Shown: piece by piece, positions 13,831 through 37,390 of the stretch
Layout: each line of letters begins with the position of its first letter
Position numbering within the stretch: position 1 is the first letter of the stretch
From: Lama guanicoe
Lineage: Eukaryota
Reading direction: 5' to 3'
Length of the DNA stretch: 64,000 bases
NCBI GenBank assembly: GCA_013239625.1
Contig: MU053513.1
Location: 1,228,927 to 1,292,926 of the forward strand
Position numbers and translations under genes: made by a program
The notes under the pieces: generated by a model
The model's database searches: none
What the model was told of the DNA's origin: nothing
What the model saw: only the letters and a program-made list of their open reading frames with translations

Positions 13831-15609
13831 GTCTCAGGTGGGTAAAAGGATGCACCCAGAATGCTGAGTGTTTATCTCTGGGTAGTGAGATTTGGATGAT
13901 TGTTTTTAATTTTAATTTGTAGTTTACTATATTTTCTTATAATAAAATTTTATAGTTAAAGAAAACATTTCATTTTTCAAAGCAGCTTGAGGGAACATAA
14001 TAACATGAAATTTAATAGGTTCCCCAATAAGGAGAAGATGTCCGTGGAAACAAAGGGAGATCTTTCCAACGGAGTTCCTAAAGCATGAGAGCGCCCTCTC
14101 CACCCTCACACCTACACATGCCAGCTTCCCGGGGCCTCTGCTGCCTCGTCCTGGCTCCTACATTGTCTCTCTCTGTCATTCATGCGGTTTTTATTTTCTT
14201 TGTCTTCTGGTCCTCTGCCCTGACCATAAATGCAAGAAGCCAAATAAAGGAAGATGGAATCATAGTAAGAACAGTAACAATTACTGTTGCTGCTCCAGCT
14301 ACAGCGTTATTATTTAATACTTAACTAACGCACCGCTGGGCCCAGAGTTCTCCACTATTACTGAAGCAGTTAACCTTCTGCCCTGCTCCCAGGCAAGGCC
14401 AGAAAAATATAAGTGGTCATATTTATGTCTTGTTAAAAGAGGAAAGAGAAGGAATAGGACGATGCACGTAACAGATTGGAGGAGCGAGTGCAAAGATCGT
14501 GAATAAGTTAAAGGAGCTAGAAAGGACGGTTTCTAGAATCTAGGTCGGGAGTACTTCCCCTGGTCATGTTTCTGTGTCTGCTTTTCTCTCCGCCTGGAGA
14601 GACACCCAGCCTCTTTGTTCAGCAAGAGCCTGCCGAGAGAATAAACCGATGAGTAAATAAATTAACAAGCAGATTAAAGCATAAGTGATTTTTAATTGTC
14701 TTCATTTACATTATTAATGTTCCCAGCCTTGCTTTTCTTTATTTTCAGTCCTTTCTAACACTTTCTTAGCCTAAATTCTTGGAAACAGTTAGTGGTTTTT
14801 GTAACCTTCGTTTTACCAACATTTATTTCTCTTTTATGTCCTGAATCACTTTCCTTGTCAAAAGATAGTATAAACTATTAATCTGAATTTTTAAATTTAT
14901 GTTATCTAACAATTTTTCTTCTACTCATGTTTCATTACTTGAAAAACCTTCTAGCTTTTAATATTAACTTCTTACAACCTGCTATATTCTGATCTTGTTC
15001 TAACCTTGCTCGGACCTGTCCAAAACACTAGTTTCTTATCTGCAGCTTTTTATCACTCTAGAAATTATATACATTATTATCTCTTTTCTCCTTGGTTTTA
15101 CATTACAATTTACATTACTTGACTTTGGATCACATTTATTTCCAGTAATTTTTCCCTCCAAATCATATACTACAGATATTTATATGTTATCAAAAATAAT
15201 CTCATCCATTACATTCATGACGAATACTGGCTATTCTATTATAAAGTATAATCGAATATCATCATATTTCCATTTTCTATACATGTCCTCTCTTCTCCTT
15301 TTCAATAAGTCCTGTTGATTAAGGCCATAGATATTGTGACCAATTAAATCAAAGAGACTGTTATTCTGTATCTAGAACACCGCCCAGCAGTTGGTAGGTG
15401 CTCAATAAATCTGTCAATTAAATAAACCAGTAATTACTTGCAGACCACCAAATCAGAAGTAATAGCTTCCTACTCCAGTGCCATCATTCATTTAATAACT
15501 AATTAAAAAGTGCCTTTGATCATTGCGTTGACAGACGATCTCTCGTTGGCTTTTATGGATTGGCAGCATTAATATTTAATAGTAACAGACAATAATGATA
15601 ATAGTATAA

Positions 15610-15800: not shown

Positions 15801-18681
15801 TGCCTCTTCAAGAGCATATTACCTCTTACTCTATTTCTTTTACTCCAACTAAGTTATAGGCTCTTTGGGGAAAGAGCTTTATCTTTTACTCCCTGGAAAC
15901 AGTCACAGCCCCAAGAGAAATGCCTTATGCATAACATTCTCAATATTTTTTGCTGATGTTAACTTCATTCAAAAATGATTAATACCTCATAAGTTATTAT
16001 AATGATAAATTATTAGAATATTCGAACTCCAATAAGATGCAAAAGATCAGCACAAAACATCTTTACTTCTCGTGAGGCCGTGAAATAGGGAGCAATAATC
16101 TGAACCTTCAAGTGGAAAATGCCCAAGAACGTTTTCTGGAGCTATGAGCTCCCCCGTCCCTTTCCAGTGCAACCAAACCTTCTCAACAGAGGACTGAAAT
16201 GGAAAACATCTGAACAGATGATTGTTTCTAATTGAGATGCTGGGTGGCAATGCCTGCAATGGCTTTTTGAGGATTTGGAGATTGTGTTGAGCATTTACTC
16301 TGTGCCAATCCCTGTGTCTCGAGAAAAATTGCAAGGGCAGATTATATTTTCTGCCCCTTTTAAGTGCTTTTAAGTGAGTACTGTTATTATAATCAGTCCA
16401 CAGATGCACAAAATTGGCTGAGAGTAACTCCAGGTCACTCCAGGTGGGGTTGGGACCCTGCCCCCTGCCTGAGCTTGAATAATTACAGTATTCTAAAAGA
16501 AAGGCTTGATTTGGGTACAACTAAAATAACTAAAGAGAATCCTACGAAATCCAATTGTCTCCGTCTCCTTTGCCATCACACCGCAGCCACACTCCATTTT
16601 AGCATTTCACAATCTGAATTTAATTTGGGGATTCAGTAGCTCAGGAGGAGTGAGCGAAACCACCTCCTTTTCTGTATAAAGCGACAACTGTACCCACACC
16701 TCGGGGGCATTGCCATCCTGACACCCAGCACAGAGGATGGGCAGAATGACAAATTTACACAAGCTTTGAAAGGTAGTATGTGCAAATATCCAGAGACAAA
16801 TTTCTCCTATTGAGTGAAATCCTCTGTAGATACAGAGCAGTAGCATTGCTATACCAGGTAAAATATATCTGGTGTGGCTGTAAGCACCTTCCAAAGCAGG
16901 TGTAAATGGAATGCATTTTATATACCTCCTGTAAGTGTAAGACTAAGCAAATAAAGTTACAATGGGCAACCCAGAGAGATTCTGGACACATCAACATCTT
17001 GAATTGTTCTTCAAATGTTTGGGAGTTTAATAAAAACCCCAAAACACATTAAGCCAGAAGAGTTTTAGATCCATGAGGGTATAAATTTAATCCACATGTT
17101 TCTGATTCATTTACACTTGAATCATTCAAGCAATGTTTTGTAAGTGCTGTCTCAAACGTCTATGATATCTTTGGCCATTTTTATGTCTTTCTCCTTAAAA
17201 GCAGGAAGTCATATTTTGCCAAGAGTAAATAAACTTAAAATACCAAAGTATTCCAGACCACCATGCACATCTGAAGCAACAGATTTTTGTGTAAAGTCTC
17301 GACCTAGCAGTGTCTTTTTTTTTTTAATTGATTGACTTTTGCTGGTCCAGTTTTACCCCATACAGTTCCATGAAGGGAGAGAAAATACTCAAAGGAGTTC
17401 AATTCCAAAGGCCTATACATAGCTCAATATATACCAGATCACACTGTAAACCTATGTGTAATATAATGTATATTGAGATACTGTGTGAATAGAAGATCGC
17501 CCCAAGCTGGCTGGATTCTGCAGGAAACAGACTTAGAGACAGAGATCTTACATGCAGGAATTGTTCTGGAGAGTGTGAGGCGATGAGGAAAGCAGGATTT
17601 CAGAGAGGGAGAAGCAGGTCTGGAATGCAGTTACAAGCTCTGAAGCACGGATGACCCTTCAGAAGTGTCCGACATGAGGCAATGAGGTCAACCGATTGAG
17701 TCCTGATCTCATCAGCATAGTTTCAAAGTGGAAATGAGGACCGTCACCCACTGAGCCCTCCTTCACATGACATTCATTTAGCAAAGGAATTAAGCCCAAT
17801 TCTGTGCCAGACGTCGGTCCCTTTCTTCAAGGAGCTTACATGCCAGAGGCAGAAGCCAAACAACCTCGAAATAAACACAGTTAAAGGTACCCCGAGTTGT
17901 CAGATCCTGCTAAGTGCTACGGGAGAAATAAAGCCAAGGAATGGAAGAGAGAGAGAAAGGGTACCTTTGAAAACAGCCCAGCTAGACAGCATGACATTAA
18001 AGAGAGGAGTCAGGGGAGAGCCACATGGATGTCAGGAGGAAAGCACTCCAGGTAAGAGGACGCCGAGGCTTCAGGGACAGGGATGTGTCCCCAAATCTCT
18101 TTGAAGGTCCTGTCGCTGACCTCACACCATGTACTCTGTGCCCACCCAAACATGAGAGCAGCCCGAATTCTTATCATGTAAAAATACATTAATATATCTC
18201 TAAAGCATACCTTTTCTCTTCTGGATATAAATTTTGAGTTACTTAAGAATGTTTACACATTGTTCACATTTTCTTTTCACTTGAAGCATATAAATGTACC
18301 TCTGTCCACCATCCTTTTGGTGTAGAGACAGGTGCACAGACCCATACACGGAGTTCCATTACACAGTTCTTAATTACGATCCTGAGAGCCAACCTTTCAA
18401 AGAACGCAATCCTCCCCAATAGCTGAAATGTCCTCTTTTGCTGTGTTGTTCCGTCATTTGCCACTCGCTCTGTGAGACCTGGTCATTCTGATGCCAACGC
18501 CTTTAGCAATTCAGTAAAATTCAATTAACCATTCAGTTCTTTGATTTATATCTGACAAATATCTTCGTGACCAAATGTTTGACTCTATTGACTAGAAATA
18601 CTAGCATAAAATTAGCAACCTCAGGAAACTCAAATTCAAACTCTGCTCATGCAAGAAAACACATTTCCTGGGTAAACTCAC

Positions 18682-18746
18682 CTACGTAAGATACCATTTT
18701 TCTCTGCAGATATTTTATACTTCTTTTCCCAATTCAAAATGATCCT
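18682..18746 (-). CDS. PTGFR: Candidate alternative cassette exon of PTGFR (65 nt; tandem acceptors give 68 or 70 nt)
   Basis: Pyrimidine tract gtgtttttcttctcttc, then AAG/AG/CAG acceptors; consensus donor TAG|GTGAGT at 18682|18681. Reads RIILNWEKKYKISAEKNGILR in phase with exon 2. Confidence 0.6.
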
Positions 18747-20465: not shown

Positions 20466-22991
20466 CAGGGTGGAGAACAATGGCTCAGTCTTTTACACCC
20501 ATGCAGTCCCTCCTGGGCATTTAGGGGAAACAGGAGAAATGTTTCAACTGAGGAGTGAGTACTGGCTGTTATTGTGGCATTCCCAAGCCTGACTTTTACA
20601 CTCTGGTTCCCTTTAGAGCTGTCTGATGACCTCAACCTAACATGCCAGGCACTTGTGTCCAGACCACAAGTTATAAATCCTTTAGCCAGAACTTGCCATG
20701 AAGACCCAAGTCTCCACAAGAGGAAGAATGCCAGGAACAACTCAAAACATCAGCCCCCAAGGAGTATCTGTGGGAGACCTACTACGCAACCAACGCAGAA
20801 ATAATGTTTACCCTAAAAAGCGTTTTAGAAGCATTGACATATTGGCGTCACAGATGTAGCAATAATTCTTTAAGAGAATGCAGATCTCAGAAAATGTTCC
20901 ACAAAAACATAAAACTATGTTTCCACTAGGAAATATGTTTAGAATATGGATTAAATTGTAACATCTATTTTAACAGTAAAGAAAGCCAAAAATTCAGGAA
21001 AAGAAACTAGAGAAAAACATAAATTCAAAATATCCACGGCGAGAATAAAATTTCGCTACTGTCCATCATCTTACAGTAGTTGACCTATAACTCCTATTTC
21101 TCACCGTCAAAAGGCAGAACTGAGCAGACTTTTAAAGATGACCCAGAACAAACTAAAAACTGAAACACCAGTGATTACTCCAGTTGTCCAGATTATCTGT
21201 CTCTCACTGAGTTCACTATTTCACGGTTTCTGGGTTTTCTCCAGAGCTCTGATCTTCATTTTAAATTTTTCATTAAATATTTTCAGCTACCTCTTTTCTC
21301 CCCGTCTCAGTATTCCCTTTCTAGCCCTCAAATTCATCTCATTTTTTTTTCTCAGACACACTTTTTTATTTTGAAAAGCTACTCTATCTCAAAGTTGAAG
21401 GCAAAAAAAGGAGCATTGTCTAAGGGAATTCCCTTTGTCAAGCAGTATAAATTAAACTCTCCAAGGATGAACACTGAAATGATTCCAAGTGTTGATAGAA
21501 CTGGTCTCTCCTATTCAGATTCAAACAACCAAACCATGAGCTCAGATCAGACCCCTACATGGGTTCACCTAAGGCCTCCTAAACTGACAATAAGCAGGTC
21601 TCAGAAGGTTGACTTCCCATTGACAGATGGAGCCCAGTCTCTCGTAGGTTGGGCACCGAGGACCAATTCCAGGACATCATAGGAGAAAAGAATATTTAAA
21701 TGATACAATTCAAGGAGCTAAATTCCAATTGTGAGAAAATACATTGGAAAAGAAATCAGGAAACATTTAAAAAGTAGAAGTCATTTTGCAGAATAAAATT
21801 GACTGCCATAGGATCTGTCCACAAAAGCCCAAAAAGCAGCTCTCAGAAACTTTTCTGTTCCCCAGGACCATCAGGATTGTCTATGAAAACTTCACTGGCA
21901 ACAATTTTTGGACAATGGGCCTGTGGGGACCTAGAAAAACTGCATTAGTAACTAACAAGCCCCTTCATACTACTACGCGATGTATGACCACGACCTCGGT
22001 GTCATGTCTGCCAGCATCTCACCTGCGTATTTTTACCTTACTTCTACCTGCGTATCTACCATTTGGATACTGGCCTGTTTCCCCACTGGTACAGAAAAGG
22101 GAATGAAAATAATCTTTGCTGCCCTGAGAAGCTACCTACACAAGGATGTTTCCTCTTTCATATGTTGTCACTTTTTCCATCATAAACTGCTGGAGAGAGT
22201 TACAGTCATACTTATCAATCATAAGTATTTTTCGTCTTCCACCTAGAAAGTCATATAAATGATTTATGTTTGTGGCTAATTCTTTAACTTTACCTTTCTG
22301 CCTTCACTTCCAAATAGAAATAACAAGATGTTAAATATAGCTGCAGGCTAAATTAAAAAAGAGGAAGGATTGAAATGAAGAGAATCCCAGGCTCTCCTGC
22401 CAATCATACCTCTCCCTGCCTTCCTGGCAGCCTGGGTTAGTGAATTAGTGATTTCTTTACCTGATCTACCCATTGAGCTCACCTGAACCATCCAACTATC
22501 TCAACTCAGCACCTCCCTTTGCAGGCTGAGATTCGGTCCTTGTGTGTTGAGAAGAACCCAGTCTATAAGTTAAATGTCTATGAGAATTACTACCAAGGCT
22601 TACTGGAGTCCATTCCAATATTGTTTCATAGTTGGTCGTTTTCTTTCACATTTTAGAAACTAATCGTATTCAGTGTATGTAAACTATGTCACTTTTACTA
22701 AAGTTACTTGATGTCACCCTGCAAGCAGGTCACACTACAGTTAGAACTGTTTAGCAAGATATATCTTTTAATTCAGGGCTTACAGGGAAATAACCATCTG
22801 TGTCATAAATAGCTTAAATCTAAAGCTATTTAGAGTGCTAAAATAAGATCTGAGTAGGGGTAAATTCCAGCATTTAAAAGATGAAACAGCACTGCCCATC
22901 AAGGCTAACAACTTTGAAAAACTCAGCAAAGACTGTACTGAATGTAGATTAACTGAAGAAAGCAGAAATTGTCAAAACCATAGGTCCTTAC

Positions 22992-23789
22992 CAGAAACGG
23001 ACTCCAGCAAACACAGGAGACACACATGATAGCGAGGAGCTGGATGACCATTTCAAAGTGATGAGACTTGCCTTGTCTGTGCTGCTGACTTTTAAATGTA
23101 ACTCTTAAAAGTGAAATGCCTGTGATGGCATTGCACAAGAGTGAAATACCAAGGGCTAGGAGCCCCAGAAAAGAAAAGAGTAGAAGATAAAACCTATCTT
23201 CCCAGTCTTTGATGTGCTCTGTTTTGTAGAAACACCACGTCCTTGACGCCTGAATTTTATAGTCACGATGCCCAAGGATGGGTAGCAAAGCGATGAAAAC
23301 GGCAAAAAAGCACACGCCACTCAACATCATTTTAACATGTTTGGATGTAAGTTTCGTAGAGTGAAATATTGGTTTGGTGACACCAATACATCGCTCAATG
23401 GCCATCACACTGCCTAGAAAAAGTGGGCACAGACCAGAGAATACCAGGCAGATACCAAAAATACTGCAAAGGACGTTTGATTGGTCAAAGTGGATCCAGT
23501 CTTTATCAGAAGCATATACAAAGACTGCTATAGCTCCATTGATGAGGTGGCCAAAAAAATCTGTGATTACCAGAGCACTTGCCAAAAGCAAAAACGATGC
23601 CTTGTATTTCTGTCTAAATCTCTGGTATGCCTTCATGAGAATCGCGATGGCAAGGCTGTTTGATAATATTCCCACTGTCATGAAGATTATTGAAAAAGAT
23701 ATTGAAGTCCCTTTTTCTGTCTGGCAAGTCGTATTTGACAGGAGCCCAGCTGCAGGAGACACTGGCTGTTTGGAATTGTTCATGGACAT
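22992..23789 (-). CDS. PTGFR: Prostaglandin F2-alpha receptor (FP), first coding exon, codons 1-266 (N-terminus to end of TM6); last coding exon lies outside the window
   Basis: Translation MSMNNSKQ...MAIERCIGV...QASRTWCFY...CWSPFL shows the prostanoid-receptor ECL2 motif and ERC in place of DRY. It spans 798 nt and ends at a phase-0 donor CTG|GTAAGG (22992|22991), the conserved TM6 intron position of prostanoid receptors. Confidence 0.98.
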
Positions 23790-23861
23790 TGTTGTGGAGA
23801 TAAAAGCCGTCCACTCAAGTCATCTCCCTCTCAAGACAGTGCAAGCTTGCAGTCCAGAGAT
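23790..23861 (-). other. PTGFR: 5' UTR portion of PTGFR exon 2 (72 nt)
   Basis: Acceptor ttctctgtcttcatactacAG|ATCTCTGG with AG at 23863-23862, 72 nt before the ATG; total exon length 870 nt. Confidence 0.9.
23820..23861 (-). CDS. Upstream ORF, exon-2 part (ISGLQACTVLRGR*)
   Basis: Continuation after splicing; TGA at 23822-23820, same frame as the PTGFR ATG. Confidence 0.55.
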   Translation of the reverse strand: MSGLQACTVLRGR

Positions 23862-25303
23862 CTGTAGTATGAAGACAGAGAAATCATGAGCACTGGACTG
23901 CTGTTCGTCTGACATTTAAGGTCAAAGCACCCCAGCACCCTGCGGTGGGAATCAGATTTATCTGGCCTATCACGAGCAAGATTACATCATCCAGAAAACA
24001 GCACACATCTGCCTGCGGTTCCACATTTCATTTTCAAGGTAAAGAAGCTACCAGAATTGAGACCCCCGCCCCCTTGGTTAACCTCTGTGGCTAACTCTGC
24101 AAATGGGCACCTCCTACATCTCCTCCTGACACGTCACTGACACCTTAAAACCCTGAAGGTTTACAAAGTCACTAGCAAGATTAGATTTAAACCCAATCGA
24201 GTTTTTAAAAGCATAATAGCCTATTTTAATAACCGGATGACCTTCTGAAGTTTCTGCTTTTTTGTCTGATGGGTTTTGTCCGCAGAGTGCAGATTATTCC
24301 TTTAGGAACTGTGTCTGCTTGTCAGGCAGACAAAATACTCTCCAAACTTTGGGAGGGAGCAAAATTCACTGACGCTGAATGGGGTTTCTCTGAATAAATT
24401 CTAAAACTATTTGATCTCGATCAAATAGCAACAAACCACACGTATCAGTGGCCCAGGAGACGGGTCGGTGTTGAGTCTCTAGGGGGGGCTTTCTGGTCCA
24501 GCTACCACCTGTGCAGAAATCCCGGGTCCTGACGGGAAGGGTTGGCTGCGCTCGCTGTGAGCACATCTGCCTGGTGCTGCTGATTAAGCCAGTTTCGGGG
24601 CAGCAGCATGCAATGTGAATTATTTATTTGTCGCTCTTTCCCTCGTGAGTCGAGAACTGAGTCACAGACCCTCTATACCCACCACCACTGCCACCCCGCC
24701 CCGAGTTAATTCGCCTGGCGTTTCCCGAGCAGCTTTCCGGGAGGCTAGAACTCCGGAGCCAGCCTTTCCTGGGACCGGCCCAAGCGGGGCCGCCCCGGTT
24801 GCCTGGAGGGCCGCCGCCTCCTTCGGGTCTTACTCACAGCTTTCACCCACAACTACCCCGCCGCCCCCAGGCCTCTGCTTGCAACATCCTTCCCAAACCT
24901 CTTAACTTGCTGAAACTTTCAGCGATTGCTCAAACGCCAGAGGGCCGGCTTCCCTCCCACCCGGGGGTGCGCCAAAGGCCTGGGCCGGCCTCGGTGCCGG
25001 AGTGGGGCGGGCAGGGAACCAAGGGGGCATTTACGCATTTCCTTCTCCGAGACCCTTTCTACCCGGTCCCCGTGAGCGCAGCTCAGAATCCGGATGGGTG
25101 AGCAAGGATACCCTGTTCTCCGCGGGCCTCCCCAGCTTGGGCATCTGGTCCAAACTTGTTGCCAAGCGCAGGCAAAGGTGCGCTCTAGCGCTGCCGGCTG
25201 CAGCCGCCGAGCGCCCGGGGGTGAGGTGGCTAGACCTCAGTGGGGTCTGAGCATCCGAAGGCCAGCTCGTGGGAATCCAGCCACTAGAGGGGTGATTGGT
25301 TAC

Positions 25304-25369
25304 CTTGTGATCCCGGGCCGCGGGCAGGGCTCTCGGAGGAGCAGAAGAGCGCGCCGGGCCGTGGGCCAT
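25304..25369 (-). CDS. Upstream ORF, exon-1 part (MAHGPARSSAPPRALPAARDHK)
   Basis: gggATGG strong Kozak context at 25369; exactly 22 codons to the exon-1 donor. Confidence 0.55.
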
Positions 25370-25481
25370 CCCGCCCCAGCTTCGCTCCTCAGCCGCCGCA
25401 GGTCCCGCCGGCGCCGCGCCGCGCCGCGCCGCGCTCTGGCCCCGGCTCCGGCTCCGGCTGCGGCTGGATGGAGTTCAGTCT
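25304..25481 (-). other. PTGFR: PTGFR exon 1 (5' leader); 5' end approximate
   Basis: Donor CACAAG|GTAACC at 25304|25303 inside the CpG island. The spliced junction resembles the human PTGFR 5' UTR as I recall it. The TSS cannot be fixed from sequence alone. Confidence 0.75.
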
Positions 25482-28207
25482 AGCGGCGGGTCCCCCCGCG
25501 CGCTCTGCCCGCACGGAACCTGCCCGGCGCGCTCGGCTTCTCCGATTTCCTAGCACCTAGAGGCGCTCGCCTCCTGGGCGGGGTGGAGGGCGTGGGTGAC
25601 CTCCGCCCCTTCCTCCCTTCTCTCCTCTCCGCCCCTTTTGCCTTTAGCCCAGAGCCGGACCAGGAGAGAGTTGAGCACCGCGCTGGGATGCTCCGGCCCC
25701 CGCATCAGCATCGGAGCTGCCCTCTCAACAGCCCGACCGCTTAGGGGAAAGTTTTGTTTCTAACTCATTTTCCAGCTAAAGTCGCCATCTCTACGGCTGA
25801 AAAATAGGAATCTGGGGAGCTGAGGAACGTCTTCGGACCGCTGTCGTGACAGCGTGTTGAACTGTCAGATTGTAGTTTGCAGACAATTCATCCAGGTAGA
25901 AAGAAAGAGACGATGTATTTGGGGAAAGGTTAGTGGCCGATATCCTTAGGAAGTTAAAAACGGGTGTTCAGCCTAAGTGTTGTCAATAAGAAAGTCACTG
26001 CCTTAGGATTCACTGTGGCTTAGAGGACTGGACTGTTTCTTGCTTTCTAAAGAATGAGAGAAGGGTTAGGGTTAGGTTTAGGCGAAAAGTGTTCTCAAAC
26101 ACCTGCAGATAAGGCATTAGTAACATTTTAATGATTTTAAAAGCCCAATGGTGAGAGAATTTCTAATGGTATGTTTACCCAAAGAGATATGAATCTAACA
26201 AATTTTGTGGCGATCATTTCATGATCAAGTTTTAAAATATCCACTACTTCACCAGGTTAAAATTGAGCCATTTTAATCCTGTAACTGCTTTTTGCCAGCA
26301 TTGTTTTGATCCATATCTCTTAACTGTATCTCATTTTTATATCTAAACACTTATGGGAATCTGCTACTGACCTTTGCTCTTTATTAGTAAAATGTTGCCA
26401 CCACATATGTGAAAAACCAATGTCACAAGAAAACAACCCCTCTTTTCTCCATTCTAAAATCAGAAGGGGCCTCTAAATTCCTGGCAATTGAAAAGGATCA
26501 TAAAATACTAGAGGGAGAGAAAATAAATTAGCCATTTACTATAGAAAAGAATGGTTGCAGAGTTTTCCCCTGTGGCAGATACTGAGATGTTTTTAATGAT
26601 ATGATCATAACTTATAAAATAAACTGTTACTGAGGTATGGGGAGAATTGAAAATTTTGGTTGATCAAATATTCTGGTTAGCAGAGAAATGTTACATCTGG
26701 ATGATCAGTATCCGTAAAAACAACTATGTAATAAACCACACTGAAAACGTGAGTGACACAGAGCACTGGTCTTTCCTTTAATGATTAATAGCACTTAATT
26801 ACATTATATGCAATTATCCATTTACTTATGTCTCTCCCACTGAACTAAACGCCTACAGAGGTCTTAGTCATCTCTCCATCCTCACCCAGGACTATCCTGA
26901 CCACTTAGCAAATGCTGTTAGAATTCATCAGTGTTACAGTCAGCATTTCCTGTATTGTATCTCAAGATCTTAAAAAGTCTCATCTCTCATTGGTGCATCT
27001 TACTAACATCAACTGCTGTCTACAGGGTAAAAGAGGAAAAATCTCATTCCTGCCATTTCAAATTGTAACATTTATTATGTGATCTGTTCAAAACAATATT
27101 AATTTACTTTTCAAAAATACTAGATAAATCCTAATTTTTGAAAAGATATCTTCTTTGCATGTATTCTTGGAGTTCCTTTTTTAGAATCCATTTCTTAATC
27201 AAGACACATTTCACCTGAGTATCAATAAAAGATTCTAAAGCACTTACATTGCTTCTCAACATGGAAAGAATATATTAGTATTAGTAGAGCAAACAGCCAA
27301 TTTACATGGAAGATTAAACACCTAACTACTCTTAAAAGAAAAAAGATGTATGTGTCTGGCTTGTAAGACCCAAGTCCGATCCCCTATTCAAAGTTCCCCA
27401 TGGCAGCCTCTGACTGCATATATAAGGAAGAAGAGCTGGTGAATCCGCAGATGAGGGAAACAAACAGATCAAAAATTAGCAGGGGGTGAGGGGTGGCTGA
27501 TAAACTCTTCTGAAAAGTGGTAATTGGTATTAATAATGCTGAGAAGTGGGCGTGCTTAAAACTCTTATTTTATACATTCCTTCAGCAAATTTCTTGAGCA
27601 CCTACTTTTTGTCAGGCACTGTTTCTAGGAGGCAGAGTTACAGCTAGGTGAACAAAGCATACAAGCCCCTGCTCTGTCTGGCTTCTGGACTGGAGGAGGA
27701 CACTTATTTTTGTGGCATGTGTGCCCAGAACCTGGACGTGATTGTGTGCATTCCATTTGGGTTAATGGAGATAAAGCTGATGTCAGACTGTGTACAAGGA
27801 GCTAATATACCATAACAGGTGTGTGCCTGGCAAACACCTTCACTCATTAGATGGAGAACACTTTGCTCAGAAGAGTGTACAGGCTATAATTAAAGTCAGA
27901 GAAACCGGGACTCAGTGACACTGAGGCTGAAATAAAAATGCCATAAAAATCAAAGAGTGTGTTGGAAGTTGATTTTTATAGTTTTAATAAAACTGTCTTG
28001 GGAAGCTTTTCTGATATTTACCATCAACATTAATGCTAGGAAATATGCCTCAGTTTGGTAGTAATGAAAATAATAACAACTTCTTTTGCCTTTTTATTTT
28101 CATTATGTAACTGTTTGAAATACAAAAAGTAACATGTGCAAGGCATTTGTAAGTTGTGAATCATAATATAAAATGAACACCCATGCACCTACCACCTAAT
28201 GTAAGGA

Positions 28208-34174: not shown

Positions 34175-36433
34175 AAAAGCTGAGCTCCAGAGTAGGACTG
34201 GCTTCTTGGCCATGCAACCAGCTCAACCTTGAAATTCCTCAGTTATTTTATCTTTGAACTTGTGTGTTTAAGCGAAGTCCAATGGGACAATGGAGCCTGC
34301 ATCAGGGGCTTAGACCTCCAGCTCCCACACAATCCCACCTGGCCTGGGACAGGTCCTCAGCCACCCATTCCCTTGTCCCAAACTTCAGCCAGCCTCCCCT
34401 CAGCAGCCCCGCCAGGTGACTGCTGCCACTCTGCACCTCGGAAGGGGCCTGGTCACAGCTTGGGTAGGGTGGGGTAGACACACACCCTGAGGCATCTCAG
34501 GGCCAAGCATGACTATGGCTGCTCCCATTCCAGGTGAGACTTGTCTGGGCCAGGGCAGGGGCAAGCCTCTCGTCCCCCTAATCAGGTGCTGAGCACATCC
34601 TGACACAGAGGTTTAAGATCTTTAATAGTCACCCATTCTACTGTGAATTGGGACTGTGGTCCCATGTAAATAGGGGACCCTCTGGCTCAACGCCTTTGAC
34701 CCAAGCTCCCTGCTGGGACACTGCACATGAGTCCCTTGGCTGATAAGAGGAGGGACCCACTAGCCATCAGGCCTCAGGAAACACACGCTCAACCCAAATC
34801 ACGCAGAGGGACCCTTGGGTACCTGTGGAGGGTTGGCGCTGACTCCTACGCCCCAAGTACCCCTCAGCCAGCTCCAGGCTGGGGGATTTTCTCTTCTTCC
34901 TTCCAGTCTTCCTTATTCTGGGTTGACTTTGCCTCTGACCAGCTAGAGGTGCCCTCAAAGGACAAGCCACAAAATACAAATTGTGTAATTTCGGTGATTC
35001 CACACCCCAGTGAAATGTGATATTTGTATTTGCACTGGCGTTGCACAATATAGAGAACAGTAAAATTCATGCTAGTAATGTAGCGTTTTAGTTTTTATTT
35101 TCTTTGGACATCAAACAGCGAATAAACAAAACCATGACAAATCCAGAGAGAGCCCACACACAAAAAAGCTTTATATTTTAATACTTTTAACAGCTTTTTT
35201 CCCCTGCTTTTTGCATTTCTTTCTCCACTTCTACACACCCAGCACTGCATCCTAGTCGTCCGTGTATGGTGCCCAGGTTCTAACACACAGTCAATAAACA
35301 TTTGGTAAATGAATGAATAAGTTCCTACAACAATTTCTCCCTTCCAGTTGGCACTAAACACTTTCTACCTGCTAAACTGACCAAGAGGCTGTGTCCTCTG
35401 TGTTTTCGCATCTTCCATAAAACTTAGCACAGTTCCTTTGTTGATGCTCATTACTGTGGAAGGAATAACCACATACATTTGTGTTTTCCCTTGTCTCAGT
35501 CAATGTAGCTCTCTAGACAATGTAAAGTGGGGATATAAATTATAGACTGAATAAATTAAAGCAAAAAATACTCTCAAGGCAGGGGAAAAAATTGAGGGGA
35601 AAAGTCGTTCTCAGACAGAATTGTGCAACCAATTCGCCTCGTTCTCCACACCACGTTTCACAGTGAGGCAGAGTTGAAGCATCACGTATCATTTTCTGGA
35701 AAGCCAGTTACAACTTATTCTAACACAGTCAACATTATTTCTCGTATCATAAAATTTTTAAAAATCAAGTTGAAAGTTAAAAGCTCTGTATTGTCACGAA
35801 TTTTTTTTTAAGTTCAAAAAAACGAAAACCTTGGCTTTCAGAATGTGACTCCTCTGCCAGGAAGAGGCGCTCATCTTGTGAAAGTGACAGCAGAGCCAGT
35901 CACCGCTCATCAGAGGGAAAACGCTGCCGTCAGAAGTCGTGTCCTCGGCAACTGTTAGCTTTGCTTTTTTTCACGAGTTGGGCGTTTGGTCTTTCTCGTC
36001 ATCATAACTGAGAATAATATTCTTCAGGGGATAATCATCTGACAGAAATGTCTCCCTTTCCAGAGCACATTCCAGAGCGTTCCAGAACACGTCTCCTGCA
36101 CATTTGAATCCCTTCTGCATCTCTGCTGCTGCTGATGGATCAATCACAATTGAAAGAGTAAAACTTGGTCTCAAAATGTGAACCTTCTCCTGCCATCTCC
36201 TTTCCTTTCAGCAGTCCCAGGTATCCAGTGGGTCACTATATTAGGCATCTTTGATGCCCTTTCTCCCCCTACCCAACCCAGAGCTCAGTATGCCAGCTCA
36301 GTCACCAATGAGCTGATTATCTTGGACACGTCACTTGAGCCCTCTGATCTTCACACGTCCCATCCACACACTGGAGAACAGGCAAAGGAAAGAAAAAGAG
36401 AGATGGTTAGACTAGAATGGTCTTTAGGATTCT

Positions 36434-36805: not shown

Positions 36806-37390
36806 TGTTGCTGGAAAGTGTGTTGCAGCTCAGTATCAGAGCTCAGTGTTACAGCTCGGTTGTGACAGCAACCTGGATCCCAGAGAGAGACCAAGCAGCA
36901 CTCAGAGAGTTAGAGATCTCAGGTTTATTATGCCAGCAGGCCCAGAGGAGTTAACACTCCAAGCTCTGGACCCCGTCTGTACGTTTACACAGGCTTTTAT
37001 AGGCTGCCAGTTTACACTTTTCAACATTTTATGCAAATAAGGTAGAACAGAAGTTGACTAATTAAGAACAAGCTTTGTAGAAATGGACCAATCAGGGGGG
37101 AGAGAAATGGACCAATCAGGAGTGAGGGAAATGGACCAATCAGGAGTGAGAGAAATAACCAATCAGGAGTGAGCTCCATGCAAATGAAGCACTACAAATG
37201 GACCAATCAGGAGTGAGCTCAGGGAAACAATAGAATTTTAGAGGTAAGTTCCACTTTCCTAGAAGTAAGCCATTTCAGAGGCAAAAAGTGAGATAAAGCT
37301 GCTGGGCCAGGGAACTGGATGGTCCTGGCAGGAGAGTAGTGGTACTGCCTGGGGGTCCTGCTGGTCTTTTTTATGGGGCTTCCAACCTCA
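36806..37390 (-). mobile_element. Solo ERV LTR (about 585 bp)
   Basis: On the minus strand: TG start, tandem CCAAT array (37081-37220), TATAAAA (37001-36995), AATAAA (36929-36924), CA end. This is U3-R-U5 order. No clean TSD found. Confidence 0.75.

What the first reader, a model, noticed from the sequence alone, without database searches (positions are those of the whole stretch)
23790..25369. Spliced 35-codon uORF in frame with PTGFR, separated by one TGA-C stop
Seen: an ATG in strong context (gggATGG, 25369) reads 22 codons to the exon-1 donor. After splicing it continues ISGLQACTVLRGR to TGA (23822-23820), giving MAHGPARSSAPPRALPAARDHKISGLQACTVLRGR*. Exon 2 has exactly 72 nt before the main ATG, so this is the receptor frame, and the 10 codons after the stop (LEWTAFISTT) are open. 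The main ATG (acaATGT) has a weaker +4 base. The unspliced ORF track cannot show this uORF. Established: UGA followed by C is the leakiest stop tetramer, and uORFs commonly repress GPCR translation. From memory, the human leader encodes a similar-length uORF in the same frame (unverified). Inference: translational control of FP, a micropeptide, or a readthrough form extended by 46 residues.
Basis: partly seen in the sequence, partly recalled or inferred. Interest (0 to 1): 0.72.

Follow-up and report, generated by a model that had tools for sequence, protein, structure and literature searches.

The report
Known translated uORF upstream of PTGFR
This is the camel-family copy of a short upstream reading frame already catalogued as translated in the human prostaglandin F receptor mRNA; it most likely just dampens receptor synthesis, and a longer readthrough receptor would be a minor by-product.

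Summary
The window is camelid PTGFR. Human has the orthologous uORF, with the same 35 codons, 66+42-nt exon split and frame. It is catalogued as translated (c1norep136; Ji 2015; probably one dataset), so the element is known.

The peptide looks unconstrained: PhyloCSF is negative, no MS study reports it, and camel-human identity (25/35) matches the neighbouring intron's pseudo-translation (60-73%).

UGA-CUU reads through at 1.28% in reporters. No 3' stimulatory hairpin was found, and 0 of 92 named PTGFR proteins are N-extended. Ruminant-like leaders are frame-shifted and a shrew-like one has Met at the stop position.

Best reading: a peptide-independent repressive uORF pair, bypassed by leaky scanning and some reinitiation. 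An extended receptor would be about 1-14% of output in a toy model; I put functional readthrough at about 6%. Camelid splicing and start site are not read-verified. The scan holds no earlier PTGFR note; a similar layout in fungal cpcA was judged incidental.

The parts
25304..25369 (-). uORF1, exon-1 part: strong-context ATG plus 21 codons (66 nt)
   Evidence: the human orthologue has a 66-nt first block
23862..25303 (-). Intron 1 (1,442 nt), donor AAG|GTAACC, acceptor TACAG|ATC
   Evidence: human intron 1,435 nt from coordinates; not read-verified in camelids
23823..23861 (-). uORF1, exon-2 part (13 codons). The first codon is Ile here and Met in 6 of 9 distinct related leaders, i.e. a second in-frame uAUG that is absent in camelids and ruminant-like leaders
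23820..23822 (-). uORF1 stop TGA, followed by CTT G; in the receptor frame, 30 nt before the receptor ATG
   Evidence: the same hexamer reads through at 1.28% in reporters
23815..23823 (-). uORF2: out-of-frame Met-Thr-stop mini-uORF whose ATG overlaps the uORF1 stop (ATGA); ends 25 nt before the receptor ATG
   Evidence: translation not shown
23790..23819 (-). Ten open in-frame codons between the uORF1 stop and the receptor ATG
23781..23789 (-). Receptor start ATG (ACA ATG T; -3 A, +4 T) and a second in-frame ATG at codon 3 (TCC ATG A)
22992..23789 (-). PTGFR coding part of exon 2 (266 codons), ending at CTG|GTAAGG
   Evidence: N-terminus 100% identical to Camelus PTGFR P0003
25370..25496 (-). 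Inferred AUG-free, GC-rich 5' part of exon 1; 5' end placed by the human RefSeq offset (uATG at nt 128 of NM_000959)
   Evidence: an inference, not mapped in camelids
24400..26000 (.). CpG island around exon 1, with GC boxes at 25576, 25603 and 25629 above the inferred start
23862..24031 (-). Conserved 3' end of intron 1, used as the local non-coding control
   Evidence: pseudo-translation 60-73% identical to three related run-on gene calls

Best explanation
An old, peptide-independent, repressive uORF arrangement in the PTGFR leader. Scanning ribosomes meet the strong uAUG first; many translate 35 codons and terminate 30 nt before the receptor AUG. A long uORF with a short gap reinitiates poorly, so most are lost. 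Ribosomes that leak past meet the Met-Thr-stop mini-uORF and then the receptor AUG. Receptor output thus depends on leaky scanning plus some reinitiation and is held low. About 1% of ribosomes reaching UGA-CUU read through and make an N-extended receptor as a minor by-product. Shown: the anatomy; translation of the human orthologue; the readthrough rate of the hexamer in reporters. Inferred: camelid splicing and start site, repression itself, reinitiation rates, and use of uORF2.
For: Anatomy. Human orthologue with the same start, split, length and frame, called translated, with its AUG at nt 128 of NM_000959, hence inside the mRNA. No amino-acid constraint, which fits the common class of uORFs that keep their frame but not their peptide (45.8% of uORFs with ORBLq > 0.9 against 2.5% with PhyloCSF > 10; PMC13275300). 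eIF3 half-length on elongating ribosomes is about 12 codons in one study and preferred reinitiation gaps are 39-140 nt in two examples (PMC10275272). Translated uORFs are generally enriched for UGA (PMC7943595), so the stop needs no special explanation. Mouse Ptgfr log2 TE is -0.70, 8th lowest of the 42 neighbouring rows read, median +0.16; this is weak, confounded support.
Against: No reporter or perturbation of this uORF appeared in any listing. Retention of the ORF between camel and human has a 3-18% chance at 0.14-0.20 substitutions per site, the intron-calibrated range, under my two assumed indel rates, so selection on the ORF is not established. Ji 2015 notes that CDS translation is only slightly lower in uORF-bearing genes. 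A second study found eIF3 retained through 60 codons. The human evidence is probably one Ribo-seq study. Camelid mRNA structure was not read-verified.
Confidence: 0.6

Rival explanations
1. Tolerated by-product: the uORF is translated but has little effect, and it persists because the whole CpG-island leader and intron end evolve slowly.
For: The intron next to exon 2 is as conserved as the uORF (60-73% against 25/35), and an intronic TGA at 23989-23987 is also matched by W in 3 of the 3 related calls that cover it in that frame. Neutral retention is 3-18%. The layout arises in 1-6% of shuffles. The ruminant-like frame shift and the shrew-like change show the details can vary.
Against: A strong-context first AUG ahead of a 35-codon ORF is expected to cost downstream initiation (established scanning model; reinitiation limits). 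Start, split and stop are identical in two lineages on opposite sides of the boreoeutherian split.
Confidence: 0.2
2. Programmed readthrough: UGA-CUU is kept so that a 46-residue N-extended FP receptor with its own trafficking or signalling is made, or so that receptor output rises when termination is impaired.
For: A single in-frame stop with 10 open codons after it. UGA CUU gives 1.28% readthrough against a UGA median of 0.19%, rising to 5.1-6.8% on eRF1 knockdown. W (TGA read as Trp by the gene caller, or TGG) sits at -11 in 8 of 9 distinct related leaders, and the 72-nt frame is kept in 6 of 9. Because the uORF suppresses normal initiation, the extended form could be 1-14% of receptor in a toy model with assumed parameters.
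Against: It is not the UGA-CUAG motif (1.3-17%). There is no 3' hairpin (z +0.80 and +0.96). PhyloCSF is negative. 0 of 92 named PTGFR proteins are N-extended. Two ruminant-like leaders are shifted by a net 2 nt before the stop, and a shrew-like leader has Met at -11. The rodent-like context differs (Pro after the stop; UGA CCU 0.67%). The extension is basic (6 K/R, 2 D/E) with no signal-like segment (best 11-residue hydropathy 1.03 against 2.46 for TM1), which is unfavourable for a receptor without a signal peptide (inference). The W count is ascertainment-biased: leaders ending in TAA or TAG cannot appear as extended calls. TGA-C could also be kept for uORF2.
Confidence: 0.06
3. The uORF works through transcript choice or decay: alternative first exons or donors remove or reframe it, or termination upstream of the exon 2/3 junction feeds the mRNA to NMD.
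For: Other consensus donors lie in the CpG island (for example GCT|GTGAGT at 24838 and TGA|GTAAGA at 24834), and joining them to exon 2 changes the uAUG content. Several accessions share one protein in some species, which may reflect UTR variants. Predicted DENR scores differ between human isoforms (2.5 against 21.4), so human leaders differ.
Against: No transcript evidence was obtained for any alternative camelid exon. No paper holds PTGFR + UPF1 + nonsense-mediated.
Confidence: 0.1
4. The 35-aa peptide is a functional microprotein.
For: The ORF is translated in human cells and has the same length in camel and human.
Against: PhyloCSF -38.29 and -706.89, 0 MS studies, classed as young. Identity to camel is what local neutral divergence gives (P of at least 25/35 is 0.22-0.69 at 0.14-0.20 substitutions per site). 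The rodent-like exon-2 part is only 4-5 of 13 identical. No homologue was found for the unspliced exon-1 ORF among 31 candidates (an insensitive test).
Confidence: 0.04

Closest known systems
Human PTGFR uORF c1norep136 (GENCODE Ribo-seq ORF set; Sandmann 2023 PMC10032668 suppl. file 2 row 623; Ji 2015 PMC4739776 suppl. file 1 row 334)
   Same: Orthologue: 35 codons, 66+42 nt across intron 1, same stop position and frame; 25 of 35 residues identical (counted by eye).
   Different: Human has a second in-frame Met at codon 23 where the camelid has Ile. The catalogue classes it 'primatomorpha - young' on protein similarity (ORF structure was assessed only within that clade); the camelid copy shows the ORF structure is shared with a laurasiatherian.
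Peptide-independent, AUG-initiated repressive uORFs with conserved ORF structure (ORBL-high / PhyloCSF-low class, PMC13275300)
   Same: Start, stop and frame are shared without amino-acid constraint; UGA stop.
   Different: The ORBL score of this ORF could not be seen; repression is untested.
Mammalian programmed readthrough at UGA-CUAG (AQP4, OPRK1, OPRL1, MAPK10, VDR; PMC5868278)
   Same: UGA followed by CU; readthrough above the UGA median; two known cases (OPRK1, OPRL1) are GPCRs (recalled).
   Different: The context here is UGA-CUUG. The stop closes a uORF, so readthrough would extend the N-terminus, not the C-terminus. There is no coding signature, and the frame is lost in ruminant-like leaders.
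DENR-MCTS1-dependent very short strong-Kozak uORFs (PMC5473865, PMC6547434)
   Same: uORF2 is a 2-codon uORF in a GPCR leader.
   Different: Dependence in human cells is essentially limited to 1-aa uORFs, and mouse Ptgfr does not respond to DENR depletion (log2FC TE -0.02, p 0.88).

Membership tests
Orthologue of human PTGFR uORF c1norep136 | Same gene, start, exon split, length and stop position | tested here: met
Translated AUG uORF | AUG-to-stop ORF wholly upstream of the CDS on the spliced mRNA | tested here: met
   splice supported by human coordinates, not by camelid reads
Translated AUG uORF | Ribosome occupancy with periodicity | tested here: inconclusive
   Reported for the human orthologue (probably one dataset); no camelid data
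Repressive regulatory uORF | Removing the uAUG raises CDS translation | not testable with these tools
   No such experiment in listings; only an indirect low mouse TE
Repressive regulatory uORF | ORF structure conserved above background | tested here: inconclusive
   Kept camel-human; neutral retention 3-18%; ruminant-like shift; ORBL table not visible
Programmed readthrough (UGA-CUAG class) | UGA followed by CUAG | tested here: not met
   Context is TGA CTT G; motif definition
Programmed readthrough (UGA-CUAG class) | Extension frame and stop context conserved across mammals | tested here: not met
   Frame kept in 6 of 9 distinct related leaders, shifted in 2, altered in 1; protein-level evidence only
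Programmed readthrough (structure-stimulated class) | Stable RNA structure 3' of the stop | tested here: not met
   z +0.80 (120 nt) and +0.96 (80 nt)
Programmed readthrough (either class) | Extended product or post-stop footprints detected | not testable with these tools
   Drop-off scores exist in the PMC13010147 supplement, which could not be read
Conserved-peptide uORF / microprotein | Amino-acid-level constraint | tested here: not met
   PhyloCSF negative; identity at intron background
DENR-MCTS1 target | CDS translation falls on DENR depletion | tested here: not met
   Mouse fibroblast table row: log2FC -0.02; not tested in human or camelid cells

The most novel reading that the evidence does not exclude
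The in-frame UGA-CUU is a selected leaky gate. Ribosomes captured by the strong uAUG read through it (about 1% basally, 5-7% when eRF1 is limiting) and make a 46-residue N-extended FP receptor. Since the same uORF suppresses normal initiation, this form could be several per cent of all receptor and would couple receptor level or form to termination efficiency. That would be a uORF-readthrough route to an N-terminally extended GPCR, which I did not see described in the listings.
Probability: 0.06. Interest if true: 0.7.

Novelty: already known. Interest (0 to 1): 0.25.

Why it matters
The FP receptor drives luteolysis and parturition and is a drug target (recalled), so a translational brake in its leader could matter for receptor dosage and for interpreting 5' UTR variants. 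The uORF is already in the human catalogue. What this work adds is modest: the ORF structure is shared with camelids, hence probably older than its catalogue label suggests; the second uAUG is missing in camelids and ruminant-like leaders; a mini-uORF overlaps the stop; and the leader is a clean natural test case for whether uORF stop leakage ever yields N-extended receptors.

Tried and rejected
No own genome is held. The run list (RNA-type rows hold 0.25-0.30 of the words of 22900-25700) is not used as evidence. Searches for orthologous DNA were empty: metagenome contigs by protein (44 pattern hits, 0 confirmed) and by leader motif (0), and viral contigs (0). No exon-1 DNA of any other species was therefore seen. 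The unspliced exon-1 ORF had no homologue among 31 candidates. A third protein search on a related leader returned only P0002. Longer annotated PTGFR proteins (P0088, P0140, P0013) carry internal insertions, not N-extensions. A 3' readthrough hairpin was rejected. DENR-dependent reinitiation was rejected for mouse fibroblasts. The Schleich score of 2.47 back-calculates to a 2-aa uORF with Kozak strength about 87, but equally to a 1-aa uORF with strength about 37, so it is only consistent with a human uORF2. PMC7943595 supplements (4 files) hold no PTGFR row. Rfam gave 0 matches in 23200-64000. The bacterial promoter scan was irrelevant. Literature: PTGFR+uORF gave 1 unrelated paper, PTGFR+readthrough 11, FP upstream ATG 8, start-site terms 15, PTGFR+UPF1 0; only listings were seen and none concerned this uORF. 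Subscription papers on FP gene structure are outside the library.

Full report
Observation. Every coordinate checks out on the minus strand. A strong-context ATG at 25369 reads 22 codons to the donor AAG|GTAACC. The acceptor TACAG|ATC opens exon 2 at 23861, and 72 nt separate it from the receptor ATG at 23789. The spliced ORF is 35 codons, stops at TGA 23822-23820 (next bases CTT G), and is followed by 10 open codons. It is the first AUG on any mRNA starting between 25704 and 25370. The receptor N-terminus is 100% identical to Camelus PTGFR (P0003); the alpaca protein P0052 is the same over exon 2 (by eye), so the window is camelid, species unresolved. One feature was missed: an out-of-frame ATG at 23823 overlaps the stop and encodes Met-Thr-stop, ending 25 nt before the receptor ATG.

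Chance. In 20,000 exon-wise dinucleotide shuffles of a 265-nt model leader, 24% had an in-frame AUG with one stop before the CDS, 5.8% had TGA-C as that stop, and 1.0% also had a strong AUG context. The pattern alone would be expected in many genes.

It is already catalogued in human. Sandmann 2023 (PMC10032668; I saw passages and one supplementary row) lists c1norep136: PTGFR uORF, 35 aa, blocks of 66 and 42 nt, class 'primatomorpha - young', 0 MS studies, PhyloCSF -38.29 (primates) and -706.89 (mammals). Ji 2015 (PMC4739776; passages and one supplementary row) lists the same two-exon uORF at nt 128-235 of NM_000959 as translated, from breast epithelial and fibroblast Ribo-seq. I recall that 'norep' means found in one study only and that Ji 2015 fed that catalogue; no call confirmed this, but the two rows are probably one piece of evidence. 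The match in block sizes and intron length (1,435 against 1,442 nt) supports the camelid donor. Camel and human peptides agree at 25 of 35 positions (14/22 and 11/13, counted by eye).

Other mammals, at protein level only. No orthologous DNA could be fetched. However, automated gene calls that read TGA as Trp expose the exon-2 leader. That the code was used is shown by P0002 continuing with W where P0080 and P0082 stop, and by its W at the catalogued human stop. Among 155 stored proteins, 17 besides my own translation extend upstream of the receptor Met, and they represent 9 distinct leaders. Eight of the 9 have W at -11. Six of the 9 keep the 72-nt frame and start it with Met (human-like, macaque-like, P0118, bat-like P0072, rodent-like P0005 and P0006). 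Two ruminant-like leaders (P0004, P0047) switch frame before the stop and appear to begin exon 2 with ATC, like the camel. One member of a shrew cluster (P0065) has Met at -11. Taxon labels rest on cluster company and resemblance; 'rodent-like' is recalled. Two cautions apply. Leaders with TAA or TAG at -11 cannot appear in such calls, and outside human the W could be TGG. If ruminant exon 1 is unchanged (not seen), their uORF would end at the uORF2 stop, out of frame with the receptor (inference). None of 92 named PTGFR proteins has an N-extension: 87 start at the receptor Met and 5 are partial. This is weak, since annotation pipelines do not model readthrough.

Is the conservation special? 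The same calls run into intron 1, which gives a control. The camel intron end is 73% (49 codons), 60% (45) and 68% (62 columns, partly exon) identical to three of them in pseudo-translation, and an intronic TGA is matched by W in all three. Simulating 0.14-0.20 substitutions per site, the range that reproduces 62-72%, gives 22-26 of 35 identical residues for the uORF and a 3-18% chance of keeping start, stop and frame under two assumed indel rates. The peptide is therefore at background, and ORF retention is suggestive but not proof of selection. The table that would settle this (ORBL scores, PMC13275300; I saw main-text passages only) and the drop-off scores (PMC13010147; passages only) are in supplements I could not see.

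Readthrough. Cridge 2018 (PMC5829715; passages and supplementary rows) measured UGA CUU at 1.28 +/- 0.10%. The UGA median is 0.19% and UGACUA was 2.85% in the knockdown controls. UGACUU rose to 5.1-6.8% on eRF1 knockdown, and 121 of 19,549 human CDSs end in this hexamer. The established mammalian motif is UGA-CUAG, 1.3-17% (PMC5868278, passages); this site is not that. No stable structure follows the stop. A toy flux model with assumed initiation (0.5-0.95 at uAUG1, 0.3-0.6 at uAUG2) and reinitiation (0.05-0.2) puts the extended form at 1.3-14% of receptor. The extension is basic and lacks a signal-like segment. Leakage probably occurs; selection for it is doubtful, given the ruminant-like and shrew-like leaders and the general enrichment of UGA at uORF ends (PMC7943595, passages).

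Mechanism. The most likely working is ordinary scanning control. The strong uAUG diverts ribosomes. Thirty-five codons and a 30-nt gap are unfavourable for reinitiation (PMC10275272, passages, which also cites longer eIF3 retention in one study). uORF2 adds a second small toll, and the receptor is made by leaky scanning plus residual reinitiation. Mouse Ptgfr has a below-median translation efficiency among the 42 table rows I read of a much longer table (PMC6547434, supplement rows and the start of the abstract only). This is compatible with the model but confounded. It does not respond to DENR depletion. Schleich 2017 (PMC5473865; passages and one supplementary row) predicts only 2.5% dependence for the least affected human isoform. 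Repression has not been measured for this leader in anything I could find (listings only).

Earlier scan notes. None mentions PTGFR and none lies near this window. One note on a fungal cpcA leader describes a similar in-frame, single-UGA layout and judged it incidental. I did not check it and do not count it as support.

Verdict. A real and already catalogued uORF, here shown to be shared between camelids and humans. It is probably a peptide-independent translational brake (0.6). Functional readthrough to an N-extended GPCR remains possible but unlikely (0.06) and is cheaply testable. Interest 0.25.

Noticed in passing
window 23862-24031 (-): The last ~170 nt of intron 1 are strongly conserved (60-73% identity in pseudo-translation to three other mammals), more than a splice acceptor needs; possibly an enhancer or an alternative promoter or exon.
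   Followed up: partly
window 24834-24838 (-): Two strong donor-like sites (GCT|GTGAGT, TGA|GTAAGA) inside the intronic part of the CpG island, near GC boxes at 24790 and 24861; a candidate alternative first exon.
   Followed up: partly
window 23859-23861 (-): Exon 2 starts ATC here and apparently in ruminant-like leaders, but with Met in 6 of 9 distinct related leaders: a likely artiodactyl loss of a second in-frame uAUG.
   Followed up: partly
protein P0065 (shrew cluster): An in-frame Met 11 codons above the receptor Met, where other mammals have the stop; a possible natural 11-residue N-extension.
   Followed up: no
window 18669-18746 (-): Weak match (46% over 26 residues, E 0.001) to the alternative C-terminal exon of human FP isoform P0021; a probable remnant or orthologue of that intron-2 exon.
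   Followed up: no
window 14557-14629 (-): Two overlapping matches in different frames to the inserted exon of Camelus isoform X2 (P0102), suggesting a small indel between this genome and that model.
   Followed up: no
window 22199-22340 (-): Region matching the alternative C-terminal exon of a Bos FP isoform model (P0041; 76-80% identity, two frames).
   Followed up: no
window 25409-25434 (-): A run of GGCGC-type units in the GC-rich leader above the uATG; below the tandem-repeat score threshold.
   Followed up: no
window 37079-37173: Tandem array of four 24-nt units containing CCAAT, as in an LTR or promoter-like repeat.
   Followed up: no
window 34201-35000: GC-rich (52-63%) but CpG-poor block, probably a repeat element.
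   Followed up: no
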